A stretch of DNA of 64,000 nt from a virus (lineage: Duplodnaviria; Caudoviricetes), in the IMG/VR virus record IMGVR_UViG_3300032269_001670, positions 1 to 64,000 of that record, one strand, 5' to 3'. The notes under the pieces are model-generated. The model did not search any database. It worked only from the letters and a program-made list of their open reading frames with translations, and was not told the DNA's origin. The position numbers were made by a program, and so were the translations under genes. The first letter of the stretch is position 1; each line of letters opens with the position of its first letter. Positions 4,584-32,186 of this stretch are shown one piece after another.

Positions 4584-4659
4584 GGGGGTGTAGCTCAACG
4601 GTTAGAGCACTGAGCTTATATCTCAGCGGCTCCTGGTTCGAGTCCAGGCTCCCCCACCA
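4584..4659 (+). tRNA. tRNA-Ile (anticodon UAU)
   Basis: Cloverleaf: anticodon stem CTGAG/CTCAG, loop CT-TAT-AT (TAT at 4617-4619), T arm CCTGG-TTCGAGT-CCAGG, encoded CCA. Confidence 0.9.
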
Positions 4660-4796: not shown

Positions 4797-5192
4797 ATGA
4801 AGTCTGTCTCACGCTTTATGCACTACGTCGAAATCAACCAGGCCAACGGCTGCTGGGAGTGGACCGGCGCCTTTGACCGGAGTGGGTATGGTGCATTCAA
4901 GGATCAGGGCAAAAAAATAAATTCGCACCGGTGGAGCTACCGTCATTTTAAGGGCGAGCCACCGAAGGGGTTGGACATCGATCACCTCTGTCGCATCAGG
5001 AAGTGTGTCAGCCCAGAGCATCTAGAGGCAGTCACGCGAAAAGTCAACGTCCAGCGTGGTCTTGCTGCGCAGGAGCGAAAAACCCACTGCATTCATGGAC
5101 ACGAATATACGCCAGAGAATACGTACCGATATCCGAGTGGCGGACGTGAGTGTCGGACGTGCAAGTATGATGGTGGACGCATTCCGGAGTAG
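4797..5192 (+). CDS. HNH homing endonuclease-like protein
   Basis: CWEWTG...SHRWSY...IDHLCRIRKCVSPEHLEAVT..N, C-terminal THCIHGHEYTPENTY..CRTC; TGn-TATACT 6 nt before ATG (leaderless). Confidence 0.85.
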   Translation: MKSVSRFMHYVEINQANGCWEWTGAFDRSGYGAFKDQGKKINSHRWSYRHFKGEPPKGLDIDHLCRIRKCVSPEHLEAVTRKVNVQRGLAAQERKTHCIHGHEYTPENTYRYPSGGRECRTCKYDGGRIPE

Positions 5193-5257
5193 CTCAGTGG
5201 TAGAGCGGGCGACTGTTAATCGCCTGGTCGTAGGTTCGAGCCCTACCTCCGGAGCCA
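5183..5257 (+). tRNA. tRNA-Asn (GUU)
   Basis: TCCGGAG/CTCCGGA acceptor stem, CT-GTT-AA anticodon loop, GGTTCGAG T arm, encoded CCA. Confidence 0.95.
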
Positions 5258-5502
5258 CGTTGTGCGTGATCCCGAGTCACCTCCGGAGTCACGCCCGGGA
5301 GTGATAGAAGGATAGAGTGAAGGAAGGATTGAATAAAAGAGTGATGGAAGGATTTAGGTATTTTAAAAAAATCCAGGCCAGGCGTTGCCCTTTGCTGTTT
5401 TTGTGGGGAGAGGGGTTGAGGGGATCTGGTGAAATGTTGAACTCTGCGCAGCGCTGACCCCGCCCGGCCACCTCGACGAACGGTCAAGGGGGTTGAGGCA
5501 AC

Positions 5503-5538
5503 AAGAAGCCCCACCCCCCGTAGGGGGCGGGGCTGCTT
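5503..5538 (-). terminator. intrinsic terminator (cassette A)
   Basis: GC-rich stem, UACG loop, U-rich tail on minus strand, about 20 nt past the ORF stop. Confidence 0.75.
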
Positions 5539-5556
5539 GGTTCCGAGCTTCTCGGT

Positions 5557-5778
5557 CTAGTTGCTCAGGTGGAGACCGATCTCCTCGCCTACGATCCACG
5601 CCGCTACGAAGAGACCGAAGCCAGCGAACCCGCCAACAATCGCCATACCTGGACTCACCCAAAATCCGGTGCCGCCGACCACTACGCCGAACCCGCCGTC
5701 GTAGCCGAACGCCCCACCGAGGACGATAGCCCCGAGCGCAATCGTTGCCACCATCAGAGCTTGTGCTGCCTTGCTCAT
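5557..5778 (-). CDS. small Gly-rich membrane protein
   Basis: 73 aa with 2-3 hydrophobic segments; own promoter, RBS GAAGGGAG and terminator. Confidence 0.75.
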   Translation of the reverse strand: MSKAAQALMVATIALGAIVLGGAFGYDGGFGVVVGGTGFWVSPGMAIVGGFAGFGLFVAAWIVGEEIGLHLSN

Positions 5779-5828
5779 TTCGTTTCTCCCTTCGTCGGTT
5801 CGGGTCTGTGCCTACCCCCGACACATAG

Positions 5829-5856
5829 AGAATAGCGCAACCACGGCAGGAGTCAA
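5829..5856 (-). promoter_or_regulatory. sigma70-type promoter
   Basis: TTGACT-N16-TATTCT. Confidence 0.7.
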
Positions 5857-5917
5857 GAGGTAAGCTCAGGCGAGGCCGACCCCGACCGCTGCCCTCAACC
5901 GGTGCCTACCTACCCAT

Positions 5918-6012
5918 TAGTTCGTGGGGTCAGGGGTAGCGCGCGAGTAATGAATGAATGATGAATGATGAATGAGTGATGAAATGGGGTATGGGGTGAA
6001 GGGGTAAGGGGT
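5918..6012 (+). repeat. spacer: TAGTTCGTGGGG, (TGAA/TGA)n and four GGGG tracts
   Basis: GGGGTATGGGGTGAAGGGGTAAGGGG at 5986-6011. Confidence 0.9.
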
Positions 6013-6039
6013 GAATCAGAAAAATCGATGAACGGGCAA

Positions 6040-6073
6040 CAAGAAACCCGCCCCCGAAGGAGCGGGTTTCTTG
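6040..6073 (-). terminator. intrinsic terminator (cassette B)
   Basis: AAGAAACCCGC..CCGAAGG..GCGGGTTTCTT; cUUCGg loop on minus strand. Confidence 0.85.
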
Positions 6074-6090
6074 CGCCCGAAGGCTACCGA

Positions 6091-6555
6091 CTAGCAGCCG
6101 CGCTGCGGCTCCATCTTGACCTGCTCCTCTCCTGCGATGAGCCACGACACGAGCCGAGTCAGGTTCACGCCACGATGCGCGTGGAACGAGGCGCGCTTCA
6201 CACACGCCGACCCTTCCTTCCCCGCGTACTCGCAGAAGGTCGTGATGCCGTACTCAACAGGAGCCGAGATCACCAACGAGAGCGAAGGATCGCCAGCCTT
6301 GCTCAACCAGACACCGAGGGCGTGCTCGTCGCGGTTGATCTGCCCAGCCACGCGAACCAGTACCGAACCCGACTCAGCGACCGCCTCAGTCTTTACCCGA
6401 CCGAGAGCCTTGTGGTCAGCCTGCCGCCTCGAAGCAGAGGCAACGCGGCGAGCGCGCTCCTTCTCCGTGGTCGGCTTCGTCCAGTAGGTCAGAACGACGA
6501 CCTTCCCACCGGACTTCTTGGCGGCTTCCAGACCCTCTTCGTAGGTCATTCCCAT
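6091..6555 (-). CDS. hypothetical protein, paralog of 10152-10643
   Basis: 154 aa from ATG at 6555; C-x9-C-x6-H-x-H; ends in GC. Confidence 0.8.
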   Translation of the reverse strand: MGMTYEEGLEAAKKSGGKVVVLTYWTKPTTEKERARRVASASRRQADHKALGRVKTEAVAESGSVLVRVAGQINRDEHALGVWLSKAGDPSLSLVISAPVEYGITTFCEYAGKEGSACVKRASFHAHRGVNLTRLVSWLIAGEEQVKMEPQRGC

Positions 6556-6612
6556 TTGGTACTCCCTGTCGGGCGGTTGCCTAGCGGCTCCCTCTATGCT
6601 CCCGACACAAGA

Positions 6613-6641
6613 AAGATACACCCACCGAAGCCAGAGCGCAA
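6613..6641 (-). promoter_or_regulatory. sigma70-type promoter
   Basis: TTGCGC-N17-TATCTT. Confidence 0.7.
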
Positions 6642-6699
6642 GCCCGACCCATCAGGCGCAACGCTGCCCGCTCATCGACATTGCCCGCCTTTGGCCCTT

Positions 6700-6961
6700 T
6701 GTTCTTGGGGTGAGGGGTAATGATGATGATGAATGATGAATGATGATGAATGATGAATGAGGGCTGAAAAAGAAGCTCCGCGCTCATTGACCGAGTCTCG
6801 ACAGAGCAGCCCGAAGGTTGACTCTTGCCGGACAACGAGTCGTAGTTCTTGGGGTCAGGGGTAAATGGTGGGGTAAGGGGTAAGGGGTAGATGATGAATG
6901 ATGAACGATGATGATGATGTCGATGAACGGGCAGCGATGGGGTAAGGGGTGGGGGCAGGGG
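6700..6961 (+). repeat. double spacer with G-tracts and TGA microsatellites
   Basis: (TGA/TGAA)n at 6721-6759 and 6891-6927; five GGGG at 6851-6887; four G-tracts at 6939-6961. Confidence 0.9.
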
Positions 6962-6991
6962 TGAAGGCCTTCACGATGACCAGACACAACC

Positions 6992-7032
6992 CAACAAGAA
7001 ACCCGCCCCCCGAAGGGAGCGGGTTCCTGTTG
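6992..7032 (-). terminator. intrinsic terminator (cassette C)
   Basis: Near copy of the 6040-6073 terminator. Confidence 0.85.
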
Positions 7033-7050
7033 CCCGAGGCTCGACGAAGG

Positions 7051-7545
7051 CTAGCCCGTGATGATGGCACCCTTCCTGCGGTTCTCAATGCCCAACGCCC
7101 ACGCCAGATCGCCGTAGCGAGTCCGAGCGTCAGCGAGCATCTGAAGATCCTCTGGGCGCTGCTCCCAGAGCGCAACGATGGTGCGGCGTGCCGACTCGGT
7201 GAGGTCTCCGAACTCCTCTTCGTCGTAGCCCGTCGAGTAGTGGGCAGCGTCATCTACCAACTCGCGGAACTCTGCTGGATTCATCACCAAAACCACCCAA
7301 CCCTCGTTGGTGCCGTTCGTTGACCGAATCTCGACGGAGACGAAGTCAAGGTCGCGGCTCGTGTGGTCGTCCCAGAAGCGACCCGAAACCACGAGAGCCT
7401 TCGCAGCCTTGCCAAGCGTGCGGATAGCAGCATTCGCAGCGGCGTGCTCCTCGTCAGTGATGGAGAGCAGGACGGAGCGGACGATTGCCCGCACCTCGAC
7501 GAGACGCTTCTCGTTGCTCTCACTGCTGAACGGATTTCCGTCCAT
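7051..7545 (-). CDS. hypothetical protein
   Basis: 164 aa; RBS GAAAGGGG; own promoter and terminator. Confidence 0.75.
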   Translation of the reverse strand: MDGNPFSSESNEKRLVEVRAIVRSVLLSITDEEHAAANAAIRTLGKAAKALVVSGRFWDDHTSRDLDFVSVEIRSTNGTNEGWVVLVMNPAEFRELVDDAAHYSTGYDEEEFGDLTESARRTIVALWEQRPEDLQMLADARTRYGDLAWALGIENRRKGAIITG

Positions 7546-7596
7546 TGTGTACCCCTTTCGTCAGGGCGGGTCTGTGCCGACAACCCCAACACCGAA

Positions 7597-7625
7597 AGAC
7601 TACATCGACAGACGGGCAGCGTCAA
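7597..7625 (-). promoter_or_regulatory. sigma70-type promoter
   Basis: TTGACG-N17-TAGTCT. Confidence 0.75.
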
Positions 7626-7667
7626 ACCCGACGCACCAGACGCAACGACCGAACCACCTATGAAGTC

Positions 7668-7915
7668 GTAGTCCTTGGGGATAGGGGTACGCCCGAAGTA
7701 ATGGCCTGATGATGATGACCTGATGATGATGACCTGATGAATGAGAACTGATGAATGATGACCGCTACCGGTGCTGAGATTCTCAAAGCTACACAAGAAA
7801 CGACCCCGTAGGAACGACGGAGAGGCACGGAAACGAGTAGGCCTATACCAGAACACCTAGAAGTTTTGGGGTAAGGGGTACGGGGTAAGGCCTAAGGGGT
7901 GAGGGGTAATGAGTG
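7668..7915 (+). repeat. double spacer with G-tracts and TGA repeats
   Basis: (TGATGATGACC)x2 and TGAA repeats at 7706-7760; five GGGG at 7868-7906. Confidence 0.9.
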
Positions 7916-7921
7916 AGGCCA

Positions 7922-7960
7922 TAAAGAAACCACCCCCACCCCGAAGGGTGAGGGTGGCCT
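7922..7960 (-). terminator. intrinsic terminator (cassette D)
   Basis: CCACCC..CACCCGAAGGGTG..GGGTGG with TTTCTTT tail on minus strand. Confidence 0.8.
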
Positions 7961-7983
7961 CAGTTGCCCCCAGCCGGAGAGGA

Positions 7984-8340
7984 CTACCTCTCAAAGTGTG
8001 TCGGCCAGACCTTTCGTGGCTCCTCTACGGCTACGACGAAGGCCAACGGCTTCCCGTCCAACTCAACCCACGAGCCGTTCAGGCCAGCAACACCGGCTTC
8101 GGTCATCACCTCAACAGCCCAAGCAGGAGCGTCCTCGGAAGAGTCGGACTCAGGGCCGAACTCACGAACCGAGTCAATCTCAAGCACCGCGCCGATTGCC
8201 TGAATCATTCCGCGCACGGTGGGCATCACATCACCAAAGGTGTCGGCCTCGGTTTCGTCATACGACCACCCGCTCGCCAGATTGACCCGCTGACCGCTAC
8301 CGGTGTCGGGCTTTGGTACGAAGACCAAGAAACGCCACAT
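7984..8340 (-). CDS. hypothetical acidic protein
   Basis: 118 aa; RBS GAAAGGGG; own promoter and terminator. Confidence 0.75.
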   Translation of the reverse strand: MWRFLVFVPKPDTGSGQRVNLASGWSYDETEADTFGDVMPTVRGMIQAIGAVLEIDSVREFGPESDSSEDAPAWAVEVMTEAGVAGLNGSWVELDGKPLAFVVAVEEPRKVWPTHFER

Positions 8341-8390
8341 AGCGTTCCCCTTTCTGTGCTACTCGGCCGAGCATAGCGTCCGAGGAGTTG

Positions 8391-8419
8391 AGTGTAGCCG
8401 GTGGTGGGCAACAGCGCAA
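8391..8419 (-). promoter_or_regulatory. sigma70-type promoter
   Basis: TTGCGC-N17-TACACT. Confidence 0.75.
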
Positions 8420-8460
8420 GCGAACGCTGACCGAGTCCAGGAATCTATTCTTTAGGTTGT

Positions 8461-8662
8461 TAGTTCTTGGGGCTAGGGGTAATGGGGTATGGGGTAATGA
8501 ATGATGAATGATGACTGATGATGCTGGACTAATGAATGATGACCGCGACCGGCCACAACCAAGAGCGCGCAGCTCGACGCGAACCATTGACCCTGAGCCG
8601 GTATTGGGGCAACGGGGTATGGGGTCAGGGGTCGGTGGGGGTCAGGGGTGAATGATGAATGA
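8461..8662 (+). repeat. double spacer with G-tracts and TGA repeats
   Basis: TAGTTCTTGGGG; four GGGG at 8469-8494; six G-tracts at 8606-8648. Confidence 0.9.
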
Positions 8663-8668
8663 ACGGAT

Positions 8669-8706
8669 AAAGAAGAAGCCCCACCCCCGAAGGGGCAGGG
8701 CTTCAT
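8669..8706 (-). terminator. intrinsic terminator (cassette E)
   Basis: GAAGCCC..CCCCGAAGGGG..GGGCTTC; UUCG loop. Confidence 0.85.
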
Positions 8707-8728
8707 TGACCGCTACCGGCCGCGTCGT

Positions 8729-9040
8729 TCAGTTGTCGAGGTCATCACCGAACTGGTAGCCGCACGGCTCGCAGTAGTCGCCCGACCAGCCAGCCATCGC
8801 GTCGCACTTGGGGCAAACGCCCGAGGTGCTCATCTCGGTACAATCGACCCAGGCTGAACGCTCGTCATCGAGCAGGAACTCCCGCGCATCGTCGGCGGTG
8901 TCGGCGTTGTACGCCGCCAACTCCGAAGCCAGCGCAATCAGGGCTGCCGTTGCCTCTGACCGGCCAGCGTGCCACGAGCGGTGCGTCTCGTTCTCCCAGA
9001 CCACCTCGACCAGCCAGAGCGTCTTCTCCGTGTCCGTCAT
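8729..9040 (-). CDS. hypothetical protein with C-terminal zinc ribbon
   Basis: 103 aa from ATG at 9040; CPKC-x9-CEPC. Confidence 0.75.
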   Translation of the reverse strand: MTDTEKTLWLVEVVWENETHRSWHAGRSEATAALIALASELAAYNADTADDAREFLLDDERSAWVDCTEMSTSGVCPKCDAMAGWSGDYCEPCGYQFGDDLDN

Positions 9041-9083
9041 TTCTGTTCTCCTCTCTGTACTACCGGCAACTGCCGGCACCCGA

Positions 9084-9113
9084 AGTATACGCGGCCGGTC
9101 GCGGTCAGCGCAA
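9084..9113 (-). promoter_or_regulatory. sigma70-type promoter
   Basis: TTGCGC-N18-TATACT. Confidence 0.75.
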
Positions 9114-9124
9114 GTCCGAACCAT

Positions 9125-9360
9125 AGAGGAGAGAGAAGGGAGAGAGAGGAGAGAGAGTAGAGAGAAGTAGTTCTTGGGGTGTGGGGTATGGGGTAATGAT
9201 GAATGAATGATGAATGAGTGAATGATGAACTGGTGAATGATGAATGACGCTGACCGAATCCCGGTGAGCGTCGAGCTACGACCGAATGGAACGACGGACG
9301 GAGTGGCCTAGTTCTTGGGGTCTGTGGTGTGGGGTCTGGGGTCTGGGGTCTGGGGTGAAT
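9125..9360 (+). repeat. spacer: (GA)n tract, TAGTTCTTGGGG twice, TGAA repeats, (TCTGGGG)n
   Basis: GA-rich 9125-9166; TGAA/TGA 9196-9247; five GGGG at 9317-9355. Confidence 0.9.
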
Positions 9361-9380
9361 AATAGCCTGATGAATAGCAC

Positions 9381-9422
9381 CAACAAAAAGACCCCACCCC
9401 CGAAGGGGTGAGGCCTTTGTTG
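9381..9422 (-). terminator. intrinsic terminator (cassette F)
   Basis: CACCCCCGAAGGGGTG core with U-tract on minus strand. Confidence 0.8.
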
Positions 9423-9440
9423 CCCGTTCGCCGGCAGCGT

Positions 9441-9824
9441 TCAGAAGGGAGCGGCTTCCTCGTTCTGCTCGGTGTAGGCCTTGCGCGCCATCGTCCGCAT
9501 CTTGCGGATAGTGCGCTCATAGCGAGCACTGCTCTGCTGGTAGCACGAGGCCACCCACTCCATCAGTTCGGCGTCGGTCGTCCACTCCCAGAAGTCGAGA
9601 GGGAGAACGCCGAGGAGCGGGGCGGCATCGCCACCCTGCCAGAGGTGAACCTCGTTCACGGGCGCAGCCATCCCGTAGAGGATGGCCTCATAGCGGATCG
9701 CCTCGCCGTTGCCCGAATCCCGGCGAACGACCACCGACCGCTGCCAGAGCGAACCGCTGCGCTCGCCTTCCTGCTCATCTCCGAGAACTACCGAGAGGGT
9801 AGCCTTCTCATTACTCTTGGCCAT
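9441..9824 (-). CDS. hypothetical protein
   Basis: 127 aa from ATG at 9824; RBS AGAGGAG. Confidence 0.75.
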   Translation of the reverse strand: MAKSNEKATLSVVLGDEQEGERSGSLWQRSVVVRRDSGNGEAIRYEAILYGMAAPVNEVHLWQGGDAAPLLGVLPLDFWEWTTDAELMEWVASCYQQSSARYERTIRKMRTMARKAYTEQNEEAAPF

Positions 9825-9874
9825 TGCTGGTCTCCTCTGTGCTCGTCGGTGGAGCATTGCCACCGAACACCCCA

Positions 9875-9903
9875 AGTTTACCGGCACACAGGCAACAGCG
9901 CAA
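9875..9903 (-). promoter_or_regulatory. sigma70-type promoter
   Basis: TTGCGC-N17-TAAACT. Confidence 0.75.
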
Positions 9904-9944
9904 CAGGCCACCAACCGAACGACGACCGAGCGGCCAGTCAGTCA

Positions 9945-10083
9945 GTTAGTTAGTTGGTTAGTTCGTGGGGGTGCGGGGGGAATGAGTGGGGAGTGAATGA
10001 GTAATGAGTGAATGATGAATGAGGCCTGAACTATTGGTGGGGGTGTGGGGGTGTGGGGGGTGCGGGGTGAAATGTTGCCCGTG
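9945..10083 (+). repeat. spacer: (GTTA/GTCA)n, TGAA/TGAG repeats, G-tracts
   Basis: Four G-tracts at 10039-10067; TGAAATGTTGCCCGTG at 10068-10083. Confidence 0.85.
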
Positions 10084-10102
10084 AAAAGCTCTGACGAAAT
10101 GA

Positions 10103-10137
10103 TGAGGCCGCCACCCCCGACGGGATGACGGCCTCGG
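10103..10137 (-). terminator. terminator-like hairpin (cassette G)
   Basis: GAGGCCG...CGGCCTC stem; weak U tail. Confidence 0.6.
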
Positions 10138-10151
10138 TTCCGGTCGGACGA

Positions 10152-10643
10152 CTAGCAGCCGCCGATGCTCTTATCCTCAACCTGCTCCTCGCCGCCGATC
10201 ATCCACGACACAAGGCGGGTGAGGTTCACCTCGCGGTGGCCGTGGAACGCGGCGCGCTTCTCGCACGCACTACCCACAACTCCCGCGTACTCGCACGCCG
10301 TAGTCCAGCCGTACTCGGTCGGAGCCGACAGCACCAGATTGACGCACGGCTCACCCTTCTTGGTGATGTACACGCCGAGCGGGTGGACATCGCGGTTTAC
10401 CTGACCCGCAACGCGGAACAGGAACGACACGCGCCCCTTCTCATCAACCACCTGCTCGCCCGTGGTCTGAACGCGACCAAGTGCGCGGTGGGTAGCAGCA
10501 CGAGCAGCGGCCTTCTTGGCGCGCTCCTCAAACTGCTTCTTGGTGGTCGGCGCGCTCCACGCCGTCAGCACGACGATCTTACCGCCGGACTTCTTCGCCG
10601 CTTCTACGGCCTTCTCGTACGACATCCCCTTTGGTTCAGTCAT
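10152..10643 (-). CDS. hypothetical protein, paralog of 6091-6555
   Basis: 163 aa; shared blocks EAAKKSGGK.VVLT.W, RVAGQ.NRD.H.LGV, CEYAG..GSAC.KRA.FH.HR.VNLTRLVSW; ends in GC. Confidence 0.85.
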   Translation of the reverse strand: MTEPKGMSYEKAVEAAKKSGGKIVVLTAWSAPTTKKQFEERAKKAAARAATHRALGRVQTTGEQVVDEKGRVSFLFRVAGQVNRDVHPLGVYITKKGEPCVNLVLSAPTEYGWTTACEYAGVVGSACEKRAAFHGHREVNLTRLVSWMIGGEEQVEDKSIGGC

Positions 10644-10688
10644 AGGTTCCTTCTCCCTACTACTTCATCGGCAAGTGCCGACAGGTAC

Positions 10689-10717
10689 AGGTTAGCCCAT
10701 CAGACAGACGAACGCAA
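10689..10717 (-). promoter_or_regulatory. sigma70-type promoter
   Basis: TTGCGT-N17-TAACCT. Confidence 0.7.
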
Positions 10718-10744
10718 CCGCGACGCGCCAGACGCAACGCAGCC

Positions 10745-10834
10745 GGTCAGTCAGTCTGGGGTGTGGGGTATGGGGTGTGGGGTATGGGGGCGGTATAAAC
10801 CCGCAGTAATAGGCCGCCTGAAATGTTGCCCGTG
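10745..10834 (+). repeat. spacer: (TNTGGGG)x5
   Basis: TCTGGGG TGTGGGG TATGGGG TGTGGGG TATGGGGG at 10755-10790. Confidence 0.9.
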
Positions 10835-10850
10835 TAAAGCTGTACAAAGA

Positions 10851-10892
10851 GAGAGGCCGCCACCCCCGCACAGATGGGAGCGACGGCCTCGG
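10851..10892 (-). terminator. intrinsic terminator (cassette H)
   Basis: GAGGCCG...CGGCCTC stem with pyrimidine tail. Confidence 0.7.
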
Positions 10893-10909
10893 AGCCGAAC
10901 CGGAGAGGC

Positions 10910-11377
10910 CTAGCGGTAGTCGCTCGGCATCACCGGATTGTGGAGTGAGTCAATCCACACCGCGCCAATAAGCGGCGTATCCAAGAGCGTAGACTCAATG
11001 GCCTCAAAGACCTCGGCAGCGATAGGCGACGACTCGCCACCGGTAGCGTCTACGAAGTTAGCGAACGCGACCGGATCGCCGGAGAAGATCGCCGCCTGAG
11101 CGATAGTGATGGTCTTCCACGAATCAGCCTCGTAGTATGACCAGAACGAGCCGCCGGTCTCGTCGTCAGCCCAGCCAATCAGCACCGCAAGAGCGGTGCC
11201 GTAGGTTGGCACATAAGCGATGAGGTCGTCGCCGTCGCCGTAGCGAACATAGGCGCGATAGGCCGCGTCAGCCGGTAGCGTCTGGCGGCAAGCAGGGCAG
11301 ACACCCTGCGACTGGTTGCCGAGGTACTTCTGAACCCACTTCGTCGCCGGAGTGGTCTGGTCAGTTGCGTTGCTCAT
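10910..11377 (-). CDS. hypothetical protein with CxxC
   Basis: 155 aa from ATG at 11377; RBS AGGAAGGAA. Confidence 0.75.
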   Translation of the reverse strand: MSNATDQTTPATKWVQKYLGNQSQGVCPACRQTLPADAAYRAYVRYGDGDDLIAYVPTYGTALAVLIGWADDETGGSFWSYYEADSWKTITIAQAAIFSGDPVAFANFVDATGGESSPIAAEVFEAIESTLLDTPLIGAVWIDSLHNPVMPSDYR

Positions 11378-11426
11378 CTGTTCCTTCCTTCCTGTGCCTG
11401 TGCCGTTGCCAAGTGGCAACAGGTAC

Positions 11427-11455
11427 AAGGTAAGGCCTACCGCGCCAGAAGTCAA
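11427..11455 (-). promoter_or_regulatory. sigma70-type promoter
   Basis: TTGACT-N17-TACCTT. Confidence 0.75.
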
Positions 11456-11563
11456 ACGCCGTTGCGGAGAGCGCAACCGGTAGCGGGTGAGATGTCGCTC
11501 GTGGGGTGTGGGGTGCGGGGTCGCCGGTACAGGTACGGCCTGAATAATGAACTGATAACAACA

Positions 11564-11607
11564 CAAAAAAAAGAGGCCGCCCCCGGCACAGATCGGGGAC
11601 GGCCTCG
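11564..11607 (-). terminator. intrinsic terminator (cassette I)
   Basis: GAGGCCG...CGGCCTC stem followed by T8 on minus strand. Confidence 0.85.
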
Positions 11608-11626
11608 TAGATAACCGGAGCGACGA

Positions 11627-11995
11627 CTACATCGGGAACCCGCCGAACTCTAACGCCTTGATGATGGCGGCGAGTTCGTCCTCGGTGAAACCGCGCAGCT
11701 CGTCGTCGTGAACGAGTGAGCACGTACCGACAAGTCCATCACCGAACAGGTACGCCGGCGCGGACTTAGTAGCGAGAGCCAGAACATCAGACGCGGTGAG
11801 GTTCACGGCCGGCTCAGACTTGAGCAGTCCCTCCTCGTCGGCAATGAGCGCAACCGGCACGCCGCCGATCTTGCCGGAGCCGACTACCTCGACCATCTCG
11901 CACTCAGTCGCAGCGTAGAGGCCGGCGAGTCCCTGACCACGAGCGACGACGGACACCTTGCCCGGAGCAATCCTGAGAACCTGTGAGTCGTTCAT
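11627..11995 (-). CDS. DUF3846-like protein
   Basis: 122 aa; VEVV...LIADEEGLLKSEPAVN..AS...LVG...GFTEDE pattern. Confidence 0.65.
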   Translation of the reverse strand: MNDSQVLRIAPGKVSVVARGQGLAGLYAATECEMVEVVGSGKIGGVPVALIADEEGLLKSEPAVNLTASDVLALATKSAPAYLFGDGLVGTCSLVHDDELRGFTEDELAAIIKALEFGGFPM

Positions 11996-12041
11996 TGTTT
12001 CCTTCCTTTCCTGTGCTTCATCGGGAAGTCCCGACACAGAG

Positions 12042-12069
12042 AGAATACATTACCCACGCCGGAAGTCAA
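12042..12069 (-). promoter_or_regulatory. sigma70-type promoter
   Basis: TTGACT-N16-TATTCT. Confidence 0.7.
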
Positions 12070-12166
12070 CACCCCCCCCCTAAGGCCGGCCTGTCCAAGT
12101 CGAGCGTGTAGCTGGGGGCGTGGGGGGTTGGGGGGTCTGGTACAGGTACGGCCTGATAAATGACCC

Positions 12167-12209
12167 AAAGAAAAACCCCCTCACAGATGCCCGTCTGCGA
12201 GGGGGTGTT
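12167..12209 (-). terminator. intrinsic terminator (cassette J)
   Basis: ACCCCCTC.CAGA...TCTG.GAGGGGGT with TTTTTCTTT tail. Confidence 0.85.
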
Positions 12210-12236
12210 AGACCGGCGGAAAGGATCGCCGGCGTA

Positions 12237-12518
12237 TTATTCGGGGCGCACGAAACGGCCTTCCTCTCCGTTCTCCATCAAGACGAAGTCGGCAAGATGA
12301 CGCGCGATAGCCTCAGCGTCATCATCACGACCAAGCACCGGATAGCCGGCGGTACAACCCTGCGAGTAGTGGTAGCCGTCAAGGTCAAGCTTCCACAGCG
12401 TTCCGCCAAAGTTCACGCCGTCCTCGCTCATCAGCGCGACCCACGACTCGGAGTCAAGGTCAATGCGAAGGTATCCGGCCTCGTCCATCTCGTAAGCCTC
12501 AGTTCCGGTAAGTGCCAT
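12237..12518 (-). CDS. hypothetical protein
   Basis: 93 aa; RBS GAGAGGAGAGG. Confidence 0.7.
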   Translation of the reverse strand: MALTGTEAYEMDEAGYLRIDLDSESWVALMSEDGVNFGGTLWKLDLDGYHYSQGCTAGYPVLGRDDDAEAIARHLADFVLMENGEEGRFVRPE

Positions 12519-12533
12519 TTGTCCTCTCCTCTC

Positions 12534-12707
12534 TCAACCTGCCGGCGCGCACATCGCGTCGGTACAAGGCCAGCCTAGCAGAACCGCGACCAATGCCGCA
12601 AGTGCCGCAAGATACAATGCGCGACGGAGCAGCTGCTCGCGTCGCTGCTGCCGAACCCACGCCTCAGTTTCGCGCAGGTATTCGGCCTTCGTAATCAAAC
12701 TACGCAT
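12534..12707 (-). CDS. small single-pass membrane protein
   Basis: 57 aa from ATG at 12707; hydrophobic ALYLAALAALVAVLLG. Confidence 0.6.
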   Translation of the reverse strand: MRSLITKAEYLRETEAWVRQQRREQLLRRALYLAALAALVAVLLGWPCTDAMCAPAG

Positions 12708-12942
12708 TATCGTTCTCCTCATCAAGCGGATACCCTGCCGACTCCAAGAGGTAGACCGCGCACTCCGCAATCGCGCTCTTATAGTCGCCGAAGGTAGCGC
12801 GCTCTCCGGGGTAGAAGTCGTCAAACGCAATGTCGGGCAGGTCATCAGCCGAGAGGCCAACCTTCACCTCAACCTTGCGCGATACGGCCTCAATGAACTT
12901 CTCAAAGGGAAGCTCAATCATCTCGTTCACATCACGGCTCAT
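12700..12942 (-). CDS. hypothetical protein
   Basis: 80 aa; RBS GAAGGAAGGAG. Confidence 0.7.
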   Translation of the reverse strand: MSRDVNEMIELPFEKFIEAVSRKVEVKVGLSADDLPDIAFDDFYPGERATFGDYKSAIAECAVYLLESAGYPLDEENDNA

Positions 12943-12984
12943 CAGATACTCCTTCCTTCCATACCGGCAAGTGCCGGCTACGCC

Positions 12985-13014
12985 AGACTACACCCGACGC
13001 TAGGCCTGAGTCAA
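12985..13014 (-). promoter_or_regulatory. sigma70-type promoter
   Basis: TTGACT-N18-TAGTCT, overlapping the 3' end of the upstream ORF. Confidence 0.75.
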
Positions 13015-13221
13015 GGCCTCAGTTGGGTCAAACACATCAGGCCGGCCTTCTGCCACCCAAGCGTCAAGCTCCGTGCGCCACTTGTACGGCCGCTCAATGA
13101 GGTCAAGCAACAAGTCGCATCGGTCATTGGTCTCCGCATACTCCGCATACCCGCCGTGAACCATTGCGCGAGCAAACGCCAACACATCAGATTCGTCGTA
13201 AGGCCAATCAAATCGCCCCAT
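13000..13221 (-). CDS. hypothetical protein
   Basis: 73 aa from ATG at 13221; RBS AGGAAGGA. Confidence 0.65.
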   Translation of the reverse strand: MGRFDWPYDESDVLAFARAMVHGGYAEYAETNDRCDLLLDLIERPYKWRTELDAWVAEGRPDVFDPTEALTQA

Positions 13222-13360
13222 TATCTCGTCCTTCCTGTACGCCAATCTCCTCTAAGGCCGATACCTGAGCGTCAGCAAAGCACTCCGCACAGATACGCGA
13301 TTCGTACTGCCGGTCGTCCTCTACTTCACTCCCGCACCAAGAACAAGCGTTCCTACTCAC
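13208..13360 (-). CDS. small zinc-finger-like protein
   Basis: GTG start after AAGGAG; CSWC...CAEC. Confidence 0.55.
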   Translation of the reverse strand: MSRNACSWCGSEVEDDRQYESRICAECFADAQVSALEEIGVQEGRDNGAI

Positions 13361-14538: not shown

Positions 14539-14668
14539 TACGAAGTTTCTCACACCGGTATCACCTCGTCAAGTAAGTTGCGGATAAGGTTTGTGTAAGG
14601 TATCTTAACTATTGGGGGTTTGGGGGTTGCGCCGGTATACGGCCTGGATAATGAATAAGTCGAGCTAC

Positions 14669-17295: not shown

Positions 17296-17553
17296 CTACG
17301 CGCGCACCTTGCTGGCCTCGTACCGAGTGGACATCGCAAGCTTCTGTTCGTCTGACCAAGGCGGAACCTGATAGTCAAGCGGTTTGCGTGATTCCTCGTA
17401 CGCCCAGTCAATCCATCCTGAAAGCTCCACGAGATCGCGGTTCTCCCTGATGTATCGACGGATGCGCTTGCTGTATGCCGTATGACGCTCTAATGCCTTG
17501 CGGAACCGGACATACGCCCGGTAATCGTCCTCGGTATACAGCTGATCACTCAC
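17296..17553 (-). CDS. hypothetical protein
   Basis: 85 aa; GTG start overlaps upstream stop. Confidence 0.6.
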   Translation of the reverse strand: MSDQLYTEDDYRAYVRFRKALERHTAYSKRIRRYIRENRDLVELSGWIDWAYEESRKPLDYQVPPWSDEQKLAMSTRYEASKVRA

Positions 17554-18002
17554 TTCACTGACCTCCGTACCGGCTGAACTCCGGCCCGACGAAGCACGGT
17601 GTTGATGTATTGCGCGCTGACATCGTAGCTCTTGCCGATGAGCACAAGACGCTCACCGGCGCGATACCGGGTGACGACATCCTGTACGGCATCAGTAGTG
17701 AACTTCGTGCGCTTGCTCGTCGAAAGGCCAGCCGTAAAGAGTGCGTTCCTGATCGTGCTAGTCGAGCAGTTGAACTTCTTTGTGGCCTCAGTAAGTGTTG
17801 GCGAGTGTTCGCGGTAATACGACACGATCTCGTCGTAGTCATACTTGCGAAGCCGCGTGCTATTCAGAATCGGCGGACGATTGACGCCCATCTTTGCGAC
17901 GATCTGCTGAACCCGCTGTCGGGTGATGCCGTACTTTTCCGCGACGGACTGGAGTGTCATGCCACTAAGGTAATCAGTGGCAATGAGATTATTTCGTTCC
18001 AT
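17550..18002 (-). CDS. multi-HTH DNA-binding protein
   Basis: Three HTH-like repeats: TLQSVAEKYGITRQRVQQIV, TLTEATKKFNCSTSTIRNAL, RLVLIGKSYDVSAQYINTVL. Confidence 0.75.
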   Translation of the reverse strand: MERNNLIATDYLSGMTLQSVAEKYGITRQRVQQIVAKMGVNRPPILNSTRLRKYDYDEIVSYYREHSPTLTEATKKFNCSTSTIRNALFTAGLSTSKRTKFTTDAVQDVVTRYRAGERLVLIGKSYDVSAQYINTVLRRAGVQPVRRSVK

Positions 18003-18130
18003 TGCTCTCTCCTGTGAACAATACTGGGAGACGCCCAGCTCGTACGATAACTCTACTGACAGATGTACCATGTCAATCGGTAGAACCTATCGCTATTTCC
18101 TCTTGGGGTGCGGGGTTAGACAATCCGGGA

Positions 18131-22173: not shown

Positions 22174-22421
22174 GAGGCCTTCTCAAGCTTGTGCGCCTTA
22201 TCGGTCGCGTCCATACCGACACCGGTAAGCCGCTGCACCTCGGGGCCATCGCCTTCTGCCTGATAGATCCTGAGCGCATCCCCATAGGCAATACACGCAT
22301 CAAGGTAGCTCCGCATCGCCTCTGGATTCTGGGTCTGCTGTGCCTGCATAAACGCATAGGCACCCCGAGCTGCTAAGAACCCTGTGAGCATTCCGTTCTC
22401 GTACTTTTGGCCTGTCGCCAT
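22170..22421 (-). CDS. hypothetical protein
   Basis: 83 aa from ATG at 22421; RBS GTAGTAGGAGG. Confidence 0.65.
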   Translation of the reverse strand: MATGQKYENGMLTGFLAARGAYAFMQAQQTQNPEAMRSYLDACIAYGDALRIYQAEGDGPEVQRLTGVGMDATDKAHKLEKAS

Positions 22422-22571
22422 ACCGGTACCTCCTACTACACACCCCAAATAGGGCAGTACCACCATAGGGGATAGAGAGCCAGCCGTCAAACCCAGCGAT
22501 GGTTAAGGTTTCTTTATCTTGGCTAAGGACGCTCTGCCTGGGGTGCGGGGTGCCGGATAGTAAAGATTCCT

Positions 22572-22712
22572 GAATAACTTCTGAATAATTCCTGAATAAC
22601 CCTGGAATAACCCCGGAATAACTGGAGCTGGTGGAATAACTTGTGCGGAAAATGGCTGGAATAACCTTAGATATGGTAGTTGTGAAGAGGGGCATAAACG
22701 GCCTGGAATAAC
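22572..22712 (+). repeat. GAATAAC direct-repeat array with 11-bp period
   Basis: GAATAA(C) at 22572, 22583, 22594, 22605, 22616, then 22634, 22659, 22706; one more at 22821. Confidence 0.9.
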
Positions 22713-23110
22713 AGCCCACCGTGGCAACCACCCAAATCCACCAGCCAAATATCATCTTCCTGTTCCAGACACCAAACCACCACCCACACGCCACAACCTC
22801 AAACAAACGACCAACCCAGGGAATAACTGGTCATAGCGCAGACAGGAGAACACAGTCCCCAGTACAGGAAGAGTCAGCCATGAATGAAGGCGTTCTTCCC
22901 TACTACGTTCTCTTAGTCGTTCTCTATCCCTATGGAGCTTGTACGGCGCCTGCCTCACGGCACCGTGACCCTCGCCTCACGGCTCAACCGCCTTCGGCGT
23001 TTTCGGGCCGAGCCCGAGGCTCACTGGCGTAGAAGTCCTCAGTGCCAAAATGTAATAACCGCATGGTAAAGTAATCGACCGGAGGGAGACAAACAGCGCT
23101 GACCTGAAAT

Positions 23111-24335: not shown

Positions 24336-24737
24336 ATGACGAAGAAGAAGGTGATTACCGCCGACGACGTGCGAGAGATGAAGGCCATGCTTGACATGGT
24401 GAACTTGTCGTCTCTTGATAAACCATACGGGGAAGATAACGAAGCAACGCTAGGAGATCTAGTCGAGTCCCCGGGGCCATCCCCAGAGGAGCTTAGTCTC
24501 ACGTCTGATATGGTGCGCCTCATTCACGAGATGCTTGAAAGCCTTCCCGACCGGGATCGAGACATCCTTTGTATGCGCTACGGGATCGGCCTGAATCGCC
24601 CAATGACGATGGAGGAGGTAGGCCAAAAGTACAACCTGAGCCGTGAGCGCGTCCGCCAGATTGAAAATGCCGCGCTGACAACGCTCCGGCACCCGAGCAG
24701 GATGCGAAAAATGCGTGCATATTCGGTGGCAGGATGA
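24336..24737 (+). CDS. sigma70 region 3.2/region 4-only protein
   Basis: SLDKPYGEDNEATLGDLV...LPDRDRDILCMRYG...TMEEVGQKYNLSRERVRQIENAALTTLRHPSR; region 2 absent. Confidence 0.9.
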   Translation: MTKKKVITADDVREMKAMLDMVNLSSLDKPYGEDNEATLGDLVESPGPSPEELSLTSDMVRLIHEMLESLPDRDRDILCMRYGIGLNRPMTMEEVGQKYNLSRERVRQIENAALTTLRHPSRMRKMRAYSVAG

Positions 24738-31880: not shown

Positions 31881-32186
31881 ACTCCTACCCCGTATACCCT
31901 GCCCCCGTCGCCCGTCATCCCCGCCATCCCCCCCAGGTCTGGATTGCGCATCCTAGCACACCAAAATCCGAAGTGCCAACTGCTTTGTGGTTCTGCGCCG
32001 CGCCCCAATTTTAAGCACAAAATCGCCCCAATTTTCTAAACCAAAGTATTAACAACATACTCATACCCCGGAACCCTCGCCGCCCGGAGCCCTGAGTCCC
32101 CCCATCCCCCCCTCTCCTTAAAGGTTCTCCCCCCCTTCCCCCAAAAACAAGTTGGCACGTCAAAAGTTTTCGTGTATGATCCCGGC

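What the first reader, a model, noticed from the sequence alone, without database searches (positions are those of the whole stretch)
5918..12135. Strand-specific telomere-like (TNNGGGG)n G-tract islands in every spacer
Seen: clusters of 4-6 GGGG tracts with mostly 3-nt linkers at 5986-6011, 6851-6887, 6939-6961, 7868-7906, 8469-8494, 8606-8648, 9317-9355, 10039-10067 and 10758-10790. Weaker 2-3 tract versions occur at 9176, 11503, 12114, 14614, 18104 and 22539. All are on the + strand, which is the template strand for the array genes. Linkers vary (TAA, TAT, TCA, TCT, TGT) while the G4 runs are kept. Established: four or more GGGG tracts with short loops form stable G-quadruplexes. Inference, three alternatives: (a) G4 structures act as recombination hotspots or polymerase roadblocks at cassette borders; (b) the complementary C-rich, unstructured read-through RNA is a Rho rut site backing up each terminator; (c) the tracts are binding sites for a phage or host protein.
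Basis: partly seen in the sequence, partly recalled or inferred. Interest (0 to 1): 0.8.

Follow-up and report, generated by a model that had tools for sequence, protein, structure and literature searches.

The report
G-run heptad repeats joining phage cassettes
Every gap between the small single-gene cassettes of this 86-kb phage holds a conserved two-part repeat of seven-base units (runs of four G, then ATGA-type units); relatives reshuffle the cassettes at these gaps, but what the repeat does is still unproven.

Summary
All listed G-tract islands exist, all lie on the + strand, and there is at least one in each of the nine array spacers. There are 14 islands of three or more tracts, against 0.03-0.16 in shuffles.

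Each island is half of a module of seven-base repeats, (GGGGTNW)n then (ATGAATG)n. The first island starts 23-62 nt after each terminator. The last one ends 40-69 nt before the next sigma70-type promoter.

Eighteen related IMG/VR contigs carry such islands on the same strand. One sublineage instead has 16 copies of a fixed unit, GGGGGTATGGGGG-N13-TAATAG-N6-GAAAAAA.

G-runs in islands change 3-4 times more slowly than linkers or isolated G-runs. Cassette order is permuted between relatives, and homology stops 2-81 nt from an island.

The same heptads occur in unrelated high-GC phages and in bacteria such as Planctomycetota and cyanobacteria. There they show no polarity to genes, so the strand bias here may be inherited.

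My best reading is a selected cassette-boundary module that stops read-through transcription. The likeliest route is Rho loading on C-rich, nearly G-free RNA (about 0.3). Protein-binding sites, G4 DNA and a neutral minisatellite remain live rivals.

The scan earlier gave a similar rut-type reading for a C-tract in Felix O1-type phages.

The parts
5926..6011 (+). Spacer 1 module: island A (2 tracts, 5926-5936), an (AATGATG)n block at 5949-5983, and island B (4 tracts, 5986-6011). Island B lies 29 nt after the g2 terminator in mRNA sense.
6707..6961 (+). Spacer 2 double module. Island 6707-6717 is followed by an ATGA block at 6719-6760. Then comes an 85-nt unit with a degenerate hairpin, island 6851-6887 (5 tracts), an ATGA block at 6890-6919, and island 6939-6961 (4 tracts).
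7677..7906 (+). Spacer 3 double module: island 7677-7687, an ATGA-type block at 7701-7763, a terminator-like hairpin at 7804-7822, and island 7868-7906 (5 tracts).
8469..8648 (+). Spacer 4 double module: island 8469-8494 (4 tracts), an ATGA block at 8497-8543, a terminator-like hairpin at 8566-8581, and island 8606-8648 (6 tracts).
9176..9355 (+). Spacer 5 double module: island 9176-9193 (3 tracts), an ATGA block at 9195-9250, and island 9317-9355 (5 tracts).
9967..10067 (+). Spacer 6 module: island 9967-9991 (3 tracts), a (GAATGAGT)n block at 9980-10023, and island 10039-10067 (4 tracts).
10758..10790 (+). Spacer 7: a single island of 5 tracts, followed by a TAATAG and GAAA unit like the L012-type module.
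11503..11520 (+). Spacer 8: a 3-tract island, followed by CCTGAATAATGA.
12114..12135 (+). Spacer 9: a 3-tract island with G5, G6 and G6 runs, followed by CCTGATAAATGA.
5405..5423 (+). Three-tract island, 83 nt after the g1 terminator hairpin (5534-5507) in mRNA sense. The same island is conserved in L012 and L014.
14614..14626 (+). Two-tract island after the RadC-cassette terminator and before a promoter. It has the same layout as the array spacers.
18105..18115 (+). Two-tract GGGGTGCGGGG, about 27 nt upstream of the TTGACA promoter of the HTH (sigma region-4-like) gene 17550-18002. No terminator lies upstream.
22540..22550 (+). Two-tract GGGGTGCGGGG between the GTTATTCC iteron-like array and the first leftward promoter. 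No leftward gene lies upstream.
32098..32142 (-). Mirror-image element, G-rich on the - strand. Two C-blocks flank TCTCCTTAAAGGTTCT, ending 9 nt before the -35 box of a rightward promoter (TTGGCA-N17-TATGAT, gene 32187-33002). A 46-nt core is identical in four genomes.
5557..12518 (-). Array of ten monocistronic cassettes: 5557-5778, 6091-6555, 7051-7545, 7984-8340, 8729-9040, 9441-9824, 10152-10643, 10910-11377, 11627-11995 and 12237-12518. All but the last, which follows its upstream gene after a 15-nt gap, have a sigma70-type promoter, a 5' hairpin and a ribosome-binding site; all ten end in an intrinsic terminator.

Best explanation
The islands are the G-rich half of a selected two-part boundary module that separates the phage's self-contained expression cassettes.

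**Layout in mRNA sense (- strand).** Each cassette ends in an intrinsic terminator. The first C-tract island, (WNACCCC)n, starts 23-62 nt later. It is usually joined to a G-free (CATTCAT)n block. The next sigma70-type promoter follows 40-69 nt after the last island.

**What is shown.**
- This layout.
- Its non-random occurrence.
- Its presence on the same strand in 18 related contigs.
- Slower change of the G-runs than of linkers or isolated G-runs.
- The coincidence of the modules with the joints at which relatives have permuted, lost or replaced cassettes.

**What is inferred.** I take the module to be a second-line, polar stop for RNA polymerase that reads through the terminator. This would insulate each promoter from its upstream neighbour.

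**Mechanism I commit to.** Rho loads on the C-rich, nearly G-free read-through RNA. I put this at about 0.3 on its own, ahead of but not far from its rivals. Shuffling of cassettes at these direct repeats would then be a by-product, helped by the phage's own exonuclease, SSB and RusA. This parallels the PeSL elements of T4-type phages.
For: **Position.**
- The first island starts 29, 36, 23, 26, 31, 35, 62, 52 and 39 nt after terminators g2 to g10. These terminator-proximal islands are the larger ones, with 3-6 tracts.
- The gap from the last island to the -35 box is 40-69 nt.
- Across 19 arrays, 59% of terminator-like hairpins (137 of 232) have an island within 100 nt downstream, against 14% of random positions.

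**RNA composition.**
- 10 of the 14 minus-sense 78-nt windows with (C+1)/(G+1) of 4 or more lie in the cassette spacers 5284-10107. The best reach C=38, G=1.
- C-free runs on the + strand reach 72-76 nt.
- The L012/L014 type also keeps windows at a ratio of 3 or more in most spacers.

**Two blocks, one property.** The two blocks differ in sequence, but both lack C on the + strand, and both are heptads.

**Selection.** Substitutions per site are 0.052 in island G-runs, 0.170 in linkers, 0.200 in isolated G-runs and 0.146 elsewhere. Fisher tests give p of about 1e-8 to 1e-15.

**Spacers versus genes.** Between the window and its closest relative, the DNA outside the four genes compared is 88.7% identical and those genes 78.6%.

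**Shuffling.** Gene order is P-g3-g4-g5-g6-P-g8 in the window and P-g6-g5-g4-P-g3-g8 in L012, with orientation kept. Homology blocks end 2-81 nt from an island.

**Host and Rho.**
- Planctomycetota is the putative host phylum. The evidence is weak: the phage sigma fragment's best hits are 47-49% identical, and the same heptads are common in Planctomycetota genomes.
- Four planctomycete genomes that carry such heptads all encode Rho.
- One Pirellulales chromosome appears, by eye, to have the same order of hairpin, TAATGA-type block, C-island in RNA sense and next gene.
Against:
- **C4 runs are not needed for a rut site.** Selection on the runs themselves therefore points to G4 DNA or to a protein.
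- **The L012/L014 unit does not look like a rut site.** It has a fixed format with constant 18-20 nt spacing and only two tracts.
- **Three elements have no upstream terminator or co-directional gene.** They are at 18105, 22540 and 32098-32142.
- **No polarity elsewhere.** The same heptads in unrelated phages and in bacteria show none: 28 against 32 downstream of genes and 23 against 25 upstream.
- **They also occur without Rho.** A cyanobacterial genome that carries such heptads gave no match to the Rho RNA-binding domain.
- **The strand bias may be inherited.** Cassette duplication alone would produce it.
- **The host is not known.**
Confidence: 0.32

Rival explanations
1. The G-blocks are binding sites on double-stranded DNA for a sequence-specific protein, encoded by the phage or the host. 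It would recognise two G4-7 runs 2-3 bp apart. It could act as an orientation-dependent block to elongation, like the stoperators of mycobacteriophage L5 (from my own knowledge, not checked here). It could equally be a regulator bound upstream of the promoters.
For: - L012 and L014 each carry 16 copies of GGGGGTATGGGGG-N13-TAATAG-N6-GAAAAAA. All are on one strand and the spacing is constant.
- A 46-nt element with two G/C-blocks at 32098-32142 is identical in four genomes whose flanks barely align. It ends 9 nt before a -35 box.
- The G-runs evolve slowly while the middle linker base is free.
- Two-tract sites lie upstream of promoters that have no terminator before them. One is in front of an HTH gene, which would fit autoregulation.
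- The AT-block motif TYATTCM is strongly strand-biased, 56 against 15. It recurs as an 11-bp-phased array in the 22.6-kb control region.
Against: - The distance to the -35 box varies from 9 to 69 nt, and copy number from 2 to 8.
- A 7-bp period is not in phase with the helix.
- No candidate protein was tested.
- The same heptads occur in many unrelated phages and bacteria. That argues against a lineage-specific factor.
Confidence: 0.25
2. The + strand G-runs fold into G-quadruplex DNA once the adjacent AT-rich heptad block melts under negative supercoiling from the downstream promoter. The structure would either block polymerases or start recombination at the cassette joints, as the pilE G4 does in Neisseria.
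For: - G4Hunter scores reach 2.0-2.8.
- 7 of 9 spacers hold an island with 4-6 tracts and 3-nt loops.
- Conserved G-runs with free loops are the classical G4 signature.
- A block of about 30% G+C, which should melt easily, sits beside most islands.
- Cassette permutations have their ends next to islands.
- A G4 upstream of pilE drives cassette-type gene conversion (PMC3547852, PMC4412290).
- The heptad class shows no transcriptional polarity elsewhere, as expected for a DNA structure.
Against: - Tract number runs smoothly from 2 upward with no threshold at 4.
- Spacers 8 and 9 and the sites at 14614, 18105 and 22540 have only 2-3 tracts.
- The L012/L014 units have two tracts. At best they could form two-quartet or long-loop structures.
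- In leftward transcription the G-rich strand is the template. The strand displaced in the bubble is therefore the C-rich one.
- Nothing shows folding in duplex DNA.
Confidence: 0.2
3. The islands are a selectively near-neutral, self-expanding heptad minisatellite of the STRR kind. It would have been copied along with the cassettes. Its only consequence would be to supply direct-repeat homology for cassette shuffling.
For: - (GGGGTCA)n, (GGGGTTA)n and (GGGGTGA)n arrays occur in intergenic gaps of unrelated high-GC phage contigs. They also occur in many bacterial phyla, with no polarity to genes.
- Between close relatives, whole heptads are gained and lost.
- Cyanobacterial STRR repeats are 7-bp units of unknown function (PMC2670836).
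- The strand bias follows automatically if the array grew by tandem duplication and by exchange between direct repeats.
Against: - Island G-runs change four times more slowly than isolated G-runs ascertained in the same way. Neighbouring linkers are not homogenised.
- Islands persist in essentially every spacer of 18 relatives, although their sequence turns over.
- The spacing from the terminator is tight, at 23-62 nt.
- Between the window and its closest relative, the DNA outside the genes is more conserved than the genes.
Confidence: 0.15
4. The module is read on the + strand. Either it is a promoter for antisense shut-off transcripts, or it encodes a small G-repeat guide RNA like the vrRNAs of VIPR systems.
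For: - The L012-type unit has a promoter-like geometry: a block, 13 nt, TAATAG, 6 nt, then GAAAAAA.
- The phage encodes a sigma70 region 3-4-only protein and a second protein with a region-4-like HTH.
- VIPR vrRNAs are tandem repeats of conserved GGY alternating with variable NN (bioRxiv 10.64898/2026.04.26.720920).
Against: - TAATAG lacks the essential last T of a -10 box.
- No + strand promoter or terminator was found in the window's spacers.
- The period is 7, not 5, and there are 2-8 units rather than 9-16.
- Only the middle linker base is truly free.
- No RAMP-like protein was found. The ten cassette proteins have no relevant Pfam or PHROG hit, and the modelled P-family fold has no PDB match.
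Confidence: 0.05

Closest known systems
PeSLs (promoter-early stem-loops) of T4-type phages (Arbiol et al. 2010, PMC2839356; Comeau et al. 2014, PMC4122927)
   Same: Both are small composite regulatory repeats, a terminator stem-loop plus a strong sigma70-like promoter, that flank non-essential ORFan genes. In both, recombination between the repeats causes insertions, deletions, replacements and shuffling between close relatives.
   Different: Here the repeated homology is not mainly the promoter and terminator. It is an extra two-part heptad microsatellite lying between them. PeSLs have no G-run or ATGA repeats. This phage is an unrelated siphovirus-like virus. Mini-circles were not looked for.
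Rho-dependent terminators with C-rich, G-poor rut sites (for example lambda tR1; from my own knowledge)
   Same: Both have 60-150 nt of unstructured, C-rich and almost G-free RNA downstream of a gene's 3' end. In both, it lies ahead of the region to be protected.
   Different: Known rut sites are degenerate. They have no periodic C4 runs and no conserved run length. Here the site follows a good intrinsic terminator. Rho dependence is untested and the host is unknown.
STRR heptanucleotide repeats of filamentous cyanobacteria (mentioned in PMC2670836; STRR1 = CCCCAAT from my own knowledge)
   Same: Both are tandem 7-bp units with a C4/G4 run, lie between genes, vary in copy number and have no known function.
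   Different: The unit sequences differ. STRRs are chromosomal and are not known to be tied to terminator-promoter junctions, cassette arrays or a second ATGA-type heptad block.
pilE G4 of Neisseria gonorrhoeae and the G-rich repeats at other antigenic-variation loci (PMC3547852, PMC4412290)
   Same: Both are G4-capable motifs on one strand, upstream of a promoter, at a locus where gene cassettes recombine.
   Different: pilE has a single 16-nt motif. It needs its own small-RNA promoter and it drives gene conversion into one expression site. Here there are many islands, often with fewer than four tracts, and whole cassettes are permuted.
Stoperators of mycobacteriophage L5 and its relatives (from my own knowledge, not checked in the library)
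   Same: Both are many copies of an asymmetric site in short intergenic gaps, with one orientation relative to transcription. In L5 they act as polar blocks to elongation.
   Different: Stoperators are single 13-bp sites bound by the prophage repressor. Here the sites are tandem heptads of variable number. No repressor or integrase was seen and binding is untested.
VIPR vrRNAs (bioRxiv 10.64898/2026.04.26.720920)
   Same: Both are phage-borne tandem repeats with a conserved G-rich part and a variable part.
   Different: The period is 7 rather than 5. There are fewer units, no conserved 3' tail, no Vipr/RAMP gene and no evidence of + strand transcription.

Membership tests
PeSL-type mobile regulatory cassettes | A terminator stem-loop directly coupled to a sigma70-like promoter between small ORFan genes | tested here: met
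   Hairpins with T-runs follow every cassette. TTGACN/TTGCGC-N17-TAnnCT promoters lie 40-57 nt before each ATG.
PeSL-type mobile regulatory cassettes | Indels, replacements and shuffling between close relatives have their ends at the repeats | tested here: met
   Cassette order is permuted with orientation kept. Homology ends 2-81 nt from islands.
PeSL-type mobile regulatory cassettes | Excised mini-circles formed by exchange between neighbouring repeats | not testable with these tools
   This needs PCR or read data.
Rho-dependent terminator (rut site) | About 70-80 nt of C-rich, G-poor, unstructured nascent RNA | tested here: met
   78-nt windows reach C=31-38 with G=1-3 in mRNA sense. L012/L014 are weaker but reach a ratio of 3 or more.
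Rho-dependent terminator (rut site) | Termination depends on Rho and is sensitive to bicyclomycin | not testable with these tools
   No RNA data. Four planctomycete genomes with such heptads do encode Rho, but the host is unproven.
Intramolecular G-quadruplex motif | Four or more G-runs of at least 3 G with short loops on one strand | tested here: inconclusive
   Met by 7 of 24 islands in the window's 5.2-23 kb stretch, and by at least one island in 7 of 9 spacers. Not met by spacers 8 and 9 or by the sites at 14614, 18105 and 22540. Not met by any island of L012 or L014.
Intramolecular G-quadruplex motif | K+-dependent folding in vitro or in vivo | not testable with these tools
   This needs CD, melting or polymerase-stop assays.
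STRR-type heptanucleotide repeats | Tandem 7-bp units in intergenic DNA | tested here: met
   Tandem Repeats Finder gives period 7 for GGGGTAA and for ATGAATG. 83% of linkers are 3 nt long.
STRR-type heptanucleotide repeats | The unit sequence of a described STRR family and a cyanobacterial chromosome as carrier | tested here: not met
   The units are GGGGTNW and the carrier is a phage. Similar arrays were found in cyanobacterial contigs, but also in many other phyla.
VIPR vrRNA | 9-16 repeats of GGY/NN with a 5-nt period, followed by a conserved structured 3' tail | tested here: not met
   The period is 7, there are 2-8 units, and an ATGA-type repeat follows instead of a tail.
VIPR vrRNA | An adjacent vipr (RAMP) gene | tested here: inconclusive
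   The ten cassette proteins give no RAMP hit in Pfam or PHROGs. The P-family model (pLDDT 69) has no PDB match at E of 0.001 or better. The other cassette proteins were not folded.
L5-type stoperators | An asymmetric site with one orientation relative to transcription, in intergenic gaps | tested here: met
   All islands have C-rich sense strands. The 32.1-kb element is mirrored for a rightward gene.
L5-type stoperators | Bound by a phage repressor that blocks elongation | not testable with these tools
No repressor or integrase was identified among the roughly forty proteins scanned.

The most novel reading that the evidence does not exclude
The G-run heptads are a general, so far undescribed class of functional intergenic element in high-GC phages and their hosts. 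In this phage lineage they would be recruited as structure-forming (G4) or protein-bound joints. These joints would actively drive orientation-preserving shuffling of accessory-gene cassettes. That would make them a phage counterpart of the pilE G4 or of integron attC sites, and would couple insulation of expression to evolvability.
Probability: 0.15. Interest if true: 0.85.

Novelty: new variant of a known kind. Interest (0 to 1): 0.58.

Why it matters
Arrays of small, independently expressed accessory genes are where phages keep anti-defence and host-takeover functions. How such arrays are insulated and reshuffled is known mainly from the PeSLs of T4-type phages.

This case adds a different, easily recognised joint: a two-part heptad repeat with conserved G-runs. 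It comes with clear comparative evidence, namely selection on the runs, conservation across the lineage, and permuted cassette order.

The same heptads turn up in unrelated high-GC phages and in Planctomycetota, cyanobacteria and other bacteria. I found no description of them in the literature library. A function established here could therefore explain a widespread repeat class, including the long-unexplained STRR repeats.

The repeat could also serve as a compact natural insulator for synthetic gene arrays.

Tried and rejected
**Searches that found nothing**
- Nucleotide searches of the region against 50,697 deposited phage genomes, both near and distant, gave no match.
- An exact scan for AGTTCTTGGGGTNNGGGGTA in IMG/VR gave no hit outside the window's own genome.
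- Literature searches for the heptad strings found nothing relevant.

**Ideas dropped**
- I first thought of an N4-like phage, because of the 3397-aa ORF. PHROGs shows a tape-measure-like protein and no virion RNA polymerase.
- C-runs at 50.6-51.3 kb are Pro/Thr-rich linker coding sequence and are unrelated.
- A hairpin around TAATAG in the L012-type unit is present in some copies and absent in others, so it is not a consistent structure.
- I looked by eye and by scan for + strand promoters in front of the islands. There is no consistent -35 box, and TAGTTC lacks the last T of a -10 box.

**VIPR guide-RNA reading**
- Rejected on period, unit number and the lack of a RAMP gene.
- The paralogous P family (two copies in the window at 6091-6555 and 10152-10643, three in each relative examined) was folded. 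The model has pLDDT 69, and Foldseek against the PDB gave nothing at E of 0.001 or better.
- The ESM Atlas gave no usable hit.

**Blocked or weak**
- Host inference from the sigma fragment gives only about 47% identity to Planctomycetota RpoD, so it is a weak lead.
- My crude GC3-based gene calls in bacterial loci are unreliable for single loci. I used them only for pooled polarity counts.

Full report
**1. What the window is**

- The window is bases 1-64000 of an 85,707-bp IMG/VR virus record with 123-bp terminal repeats.
- It has no nucleotide match among deposited phage genomes.
- It encodes a large terminase, a portal, a giant tape-measure-like protein, an exonuclease, a DnaC-like loader, RusA and SSB. 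It is therefore a novel siphovirus-like phage with its own recombination genes.
- From about 22.4 kb leftward all genes are on the - strand.
- The stretch 5.5-12.5 kb holds ten monocistronic cassettes. All but the last, which follows its upstream gene after a 15-nt gap, have a sigma70-type promoter, a 5' hairpin and a ribosome-binding site, and all ten end in an intrinsic terminator.
- Their proteins are orphans, apart from one DUF3846 hit.

**2.

- With tracts of at least 4 G and loops of at most 7 nt, there are 14 islands of three or more tracts on the + strand. Thirteen lie between 5405 and 12135. The - strand of the whole genome has one.
- Dinucleotide shuffles give 0.03-0.16 such islands.
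- G4Hunter at 2.0 or more marks 20 + strand windows, all within 5399-12147.
- All nine spacers between the cassettes hold at least one island.

**3.

- The islands are heptad repeats, GGGG-T-N-W. Of the linkers, 83% are 3 nt long, position 1 is T in 89%, the middle base is free, and position 3 is mostly A or T.
- On the + strand, most islands are followed by a second heptad repeat, (ATGAATG)n.
- The order in mRNA sense is:
  - stop codon;
  - terminator hairpin and U-run;
  - 23-62 nt;
  - C-tract island of 3-6 tracts;
  - in the longer spacers, a 60-90-nt unit with a degenerate terminator-like hairpin, then a (CATTCAT)n block and a second island, usually ending in CCCCAAGAACTA;
  - 40-69 nt;
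  - the -35 box.
- Neither block contains C on the + strand. Read-through RNA would therefore be C-rich and almost free of G. The best 78-nt windows have C=31-38 with G=1-3, and C-free runs on the + strand reach 72-76 nt. These are the most extreme such stretches in the genome.

**4. Relatives**

- I found relatives through the loader gene and through a pattern scan. Together they give 18 related array loci in IMG/VR.
- All carry G-islands on the same strand.
- L016, L017 and L020 have 15 islands each, with the same two-part build.
- L012 and L014 share cassettes of up to 96% protein identity with the window. Each has instead 16 copies of a fixed unit, GGGGGTATGGGGG-N13-TAATAG-N6-GAAAAAA, with constant spacing and only two tracts.
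- Across all 19 arrays, 59% of terminator-like hairpins are followed by an island within 100 nt, against 14% of random positions.

**5. Selection**

- In four pairs of relatives, island G-runs change at 0.052 substitutions per site. Linkers change at 0.170, isolated G-runs ascertained in the same way at 0.200, and all other sites at 0.146. P values run from about 1e-8 to 1e-15.
- Between the window and its nearest relative, whole heptads are gained or lost and linker bases change. The runs stay intact.
- In that pair the non-coding DNA is 88.7% identical and the genes 78.6%.
- Caveat: alignment inside repeats tends to pair G with G.

**6. Cassette shuffling**

- P is a paralogous gene family, with two copies in the window and three in each relative examined.
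- Gene order is P-g3-g4-g5-g6-P-g8-g9-g10 in the window, P-g6-g5-g4-P-g3-g8-P-g9'-g10 in L012, and P-?-g3-g4-g5-P-g8-g9-P-g10 in L020. Orientation is the same in all three.
- Homology blocks between the window and L012 end 2-81 nt from an island on both sides.
- This matches the behaviour of PeSLs in T4-type phages (PMC2839356, PMC4122927).
- Any rearrangement that keeps cassettes intact must end in a spacer. This shows coincidence, not cause.

**7. Facts that cut against a simple reading**

- Two-tract sites at 18105 and 22540 lie upstream of promoters with no terminator or co-directional gene before them.
- A mirror-image element at 32098-32142 has its C-blocks on the + strand and ends 9 nt before the -35 box of a rightward gene. 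Its 46-nt core is identical in four genomes whose flanks barely align.
- (GGGGTCA)n-type heptad arrays occur in unrelated high-GC phage contigs. Only 5 of those 101 loci share any protein-level hit with this phage.
- The same arrays occur in bacterial genomes of many phyla, notably Planctomycetota and also cyanobacteria. In both sets they show no polarity to the neighbouring genes.
- The strand bias here could therefore simply be inherited through cassette duplication.
- Four planctomycete genomes that carry such heptads encode Rho. The cyanobacterium tested does not.
- The phage's sigma region 3-4 fragment is closest to Planctomycetota RpoD at 47-49% identity. This is a weak host lead.

**8. 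Weighing the mechanisms**

| Reading | Best explains | Does not explain | Weight |
|---|---|---|---|
| Rho/rut insulator | Post-terminator position, G-free composition of two unrelated blocks, free sequence and copy number | Selection on the runs themselves, the fixed L012-type unit | about 0.3 |
| Protein-binding sites | The fixed L012-type unit, the invariant 32.1-kb element, the promoter-only sites | Variable spacing, heptad phase, the wide spread of the heptads | about 0.25 |
| G4 DNA | Conserved runs with free loops, lack of polarity elsewhere | No threshold at four tracts, the two-tract units | about 0.2 |
| Neutral minisatellite | Wide distribution, unit-wise indels | The selection signal, the tight geometry | about 0.15 |
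| + strand promoter or VIPR-like guide RNA | Promoter-like geometry of the L012-type unit | Fails the tests applied | about 0.05 |

I commit to the insulator reading with Rho as the likeliest agent, and I state plainly that the margin is small.

**9. Novelty**

- The design, a terminator-promoter joint at which cassettes shuffle, is known from PeSLs.
- C-rich rut sites, G4 motifs and 7-bp STRR repeats are each known (PMC2670836, PMC3547852, PMC4412290).
- Three things are new: the two-part heptad module as the joint, the selection on it across a phage lineage, and the link to a repeat class shared with putative hosts.
- Searches of the held library for the heptad strings found no description of them.

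Noticed in passing
window 32098-32142 (context 31880-32190): A 46-nt element, two C-blocks flanking TCTCCTTAAAGGTTCT, is identical in four related genomes whose flanking DNA barely aligns. It ends 9 nt before the -35 box of TTGGCA-N17-TATGAT, which drives an apparently leaderless gene at 32187-33002 of unknown function.
   Followed up: partly
window 22560-22830: An array of GTTATTCC(A/G)G repeats, partly 11 bp apart, lies in the roughly 900-bp gene-free gap between the leftward genes (first start at 22421) and the rightward genes (first start at 23316). It could be an origin or an operator array. The related motif TYATTCM is strand-biased, 56 against 15, and makes up the AT blocks of the spacers.
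   Followed up: partly
L012:13694-20450 and L014:13577-20330: Each locus has sixteen copies of a fixed tripartite unit, GGGGGTATGGGGG-N13-TAATAG-N6-GAAAAAA, all on one strand and often in pairs 50-66 nt apart. It replaces the heptad islands between nearly identical cassettes. Some copies have a 3-5-bp stem around TAATAG and others have none.
   Followed up: partly
window 5200-8613 vs L082; window 9423-13359 vs L095: Between the window and its closest relative (a 78-kb contig), the DNA outside the four genes compared is more conserved (88.7%) than those genes (78.6%).
   Followed up: yes
window 24336-24737 (+) and 17550-18002 (-): Two small proteins carry sigma70 region-4-type HTH domains. One matches only regions 3 and 4, with its best hits to Planctomycetota RpoD. 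The other is a 150-aa HTH protein whose promoter is preceded by a two-tract island.
   Followed up: partly
L032, L034, L054, L070, L072, L094, L026, L134 (IMG/VR); L140-L259 (bacterial genomes): Long (GGGGTCA)n, (GGGGTTA)n and (GGGGTGA)n heptad arrays of up to 18 tracts lie in short intergenic gaps of unrelated high-GC phages. They also occur in many bacteria, notably Planctomycetota, and in cyanobacteria, Acidobacteriota and Verrucomicrobiota. They show no polarity to the neighbouring genes.
   Followed up: partly
L159:1207-1360 (Pirellulales MAG): A chromosomal (GGGGTCA)5 island is followed by a TAATGAC-repeat inverted repeat. It lies between two genes that appear, by eye, to run leftward. 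This is the same order of hairpin, TAATGA block and C-island as in the phage spacers.
   Followed up: no
window 7804-7822, 8566-8581, 6764-6845: The longer spacers contain 60-90-nt units with degenerate terminator-like hairpins between two repeat modules. These may be scars of lost cassettes or tiny RNA genes.
   Followed up: no
window 6091-6555 and 10152-10643 (-), with 3 copies in each relative: A paralogous 150-163-aa protein family recurs inside every array. It has 38 invariant positions, including His, Cys and Arg residues. It has no Pfam family, and its AlphaFold model (pLDDT 69) has no PDB fold match.
   Followed up: partly
window 4584-4659 and 5183-5257 (+): tRNA-Ile(TAT) and tRNA-Asn(GTT) genes sit just before the array, with an HNH endonuclease gene (4797-5192) between them. 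L012 appears, by eye, to have a tRNA at the matching place.
   Followed up: no
window 5297-5372: A 76-nt C-free, GA-rich tandem repeat with 12- and 16-nt units lies between tRNA-Asn and the first island.
   Followed up: no
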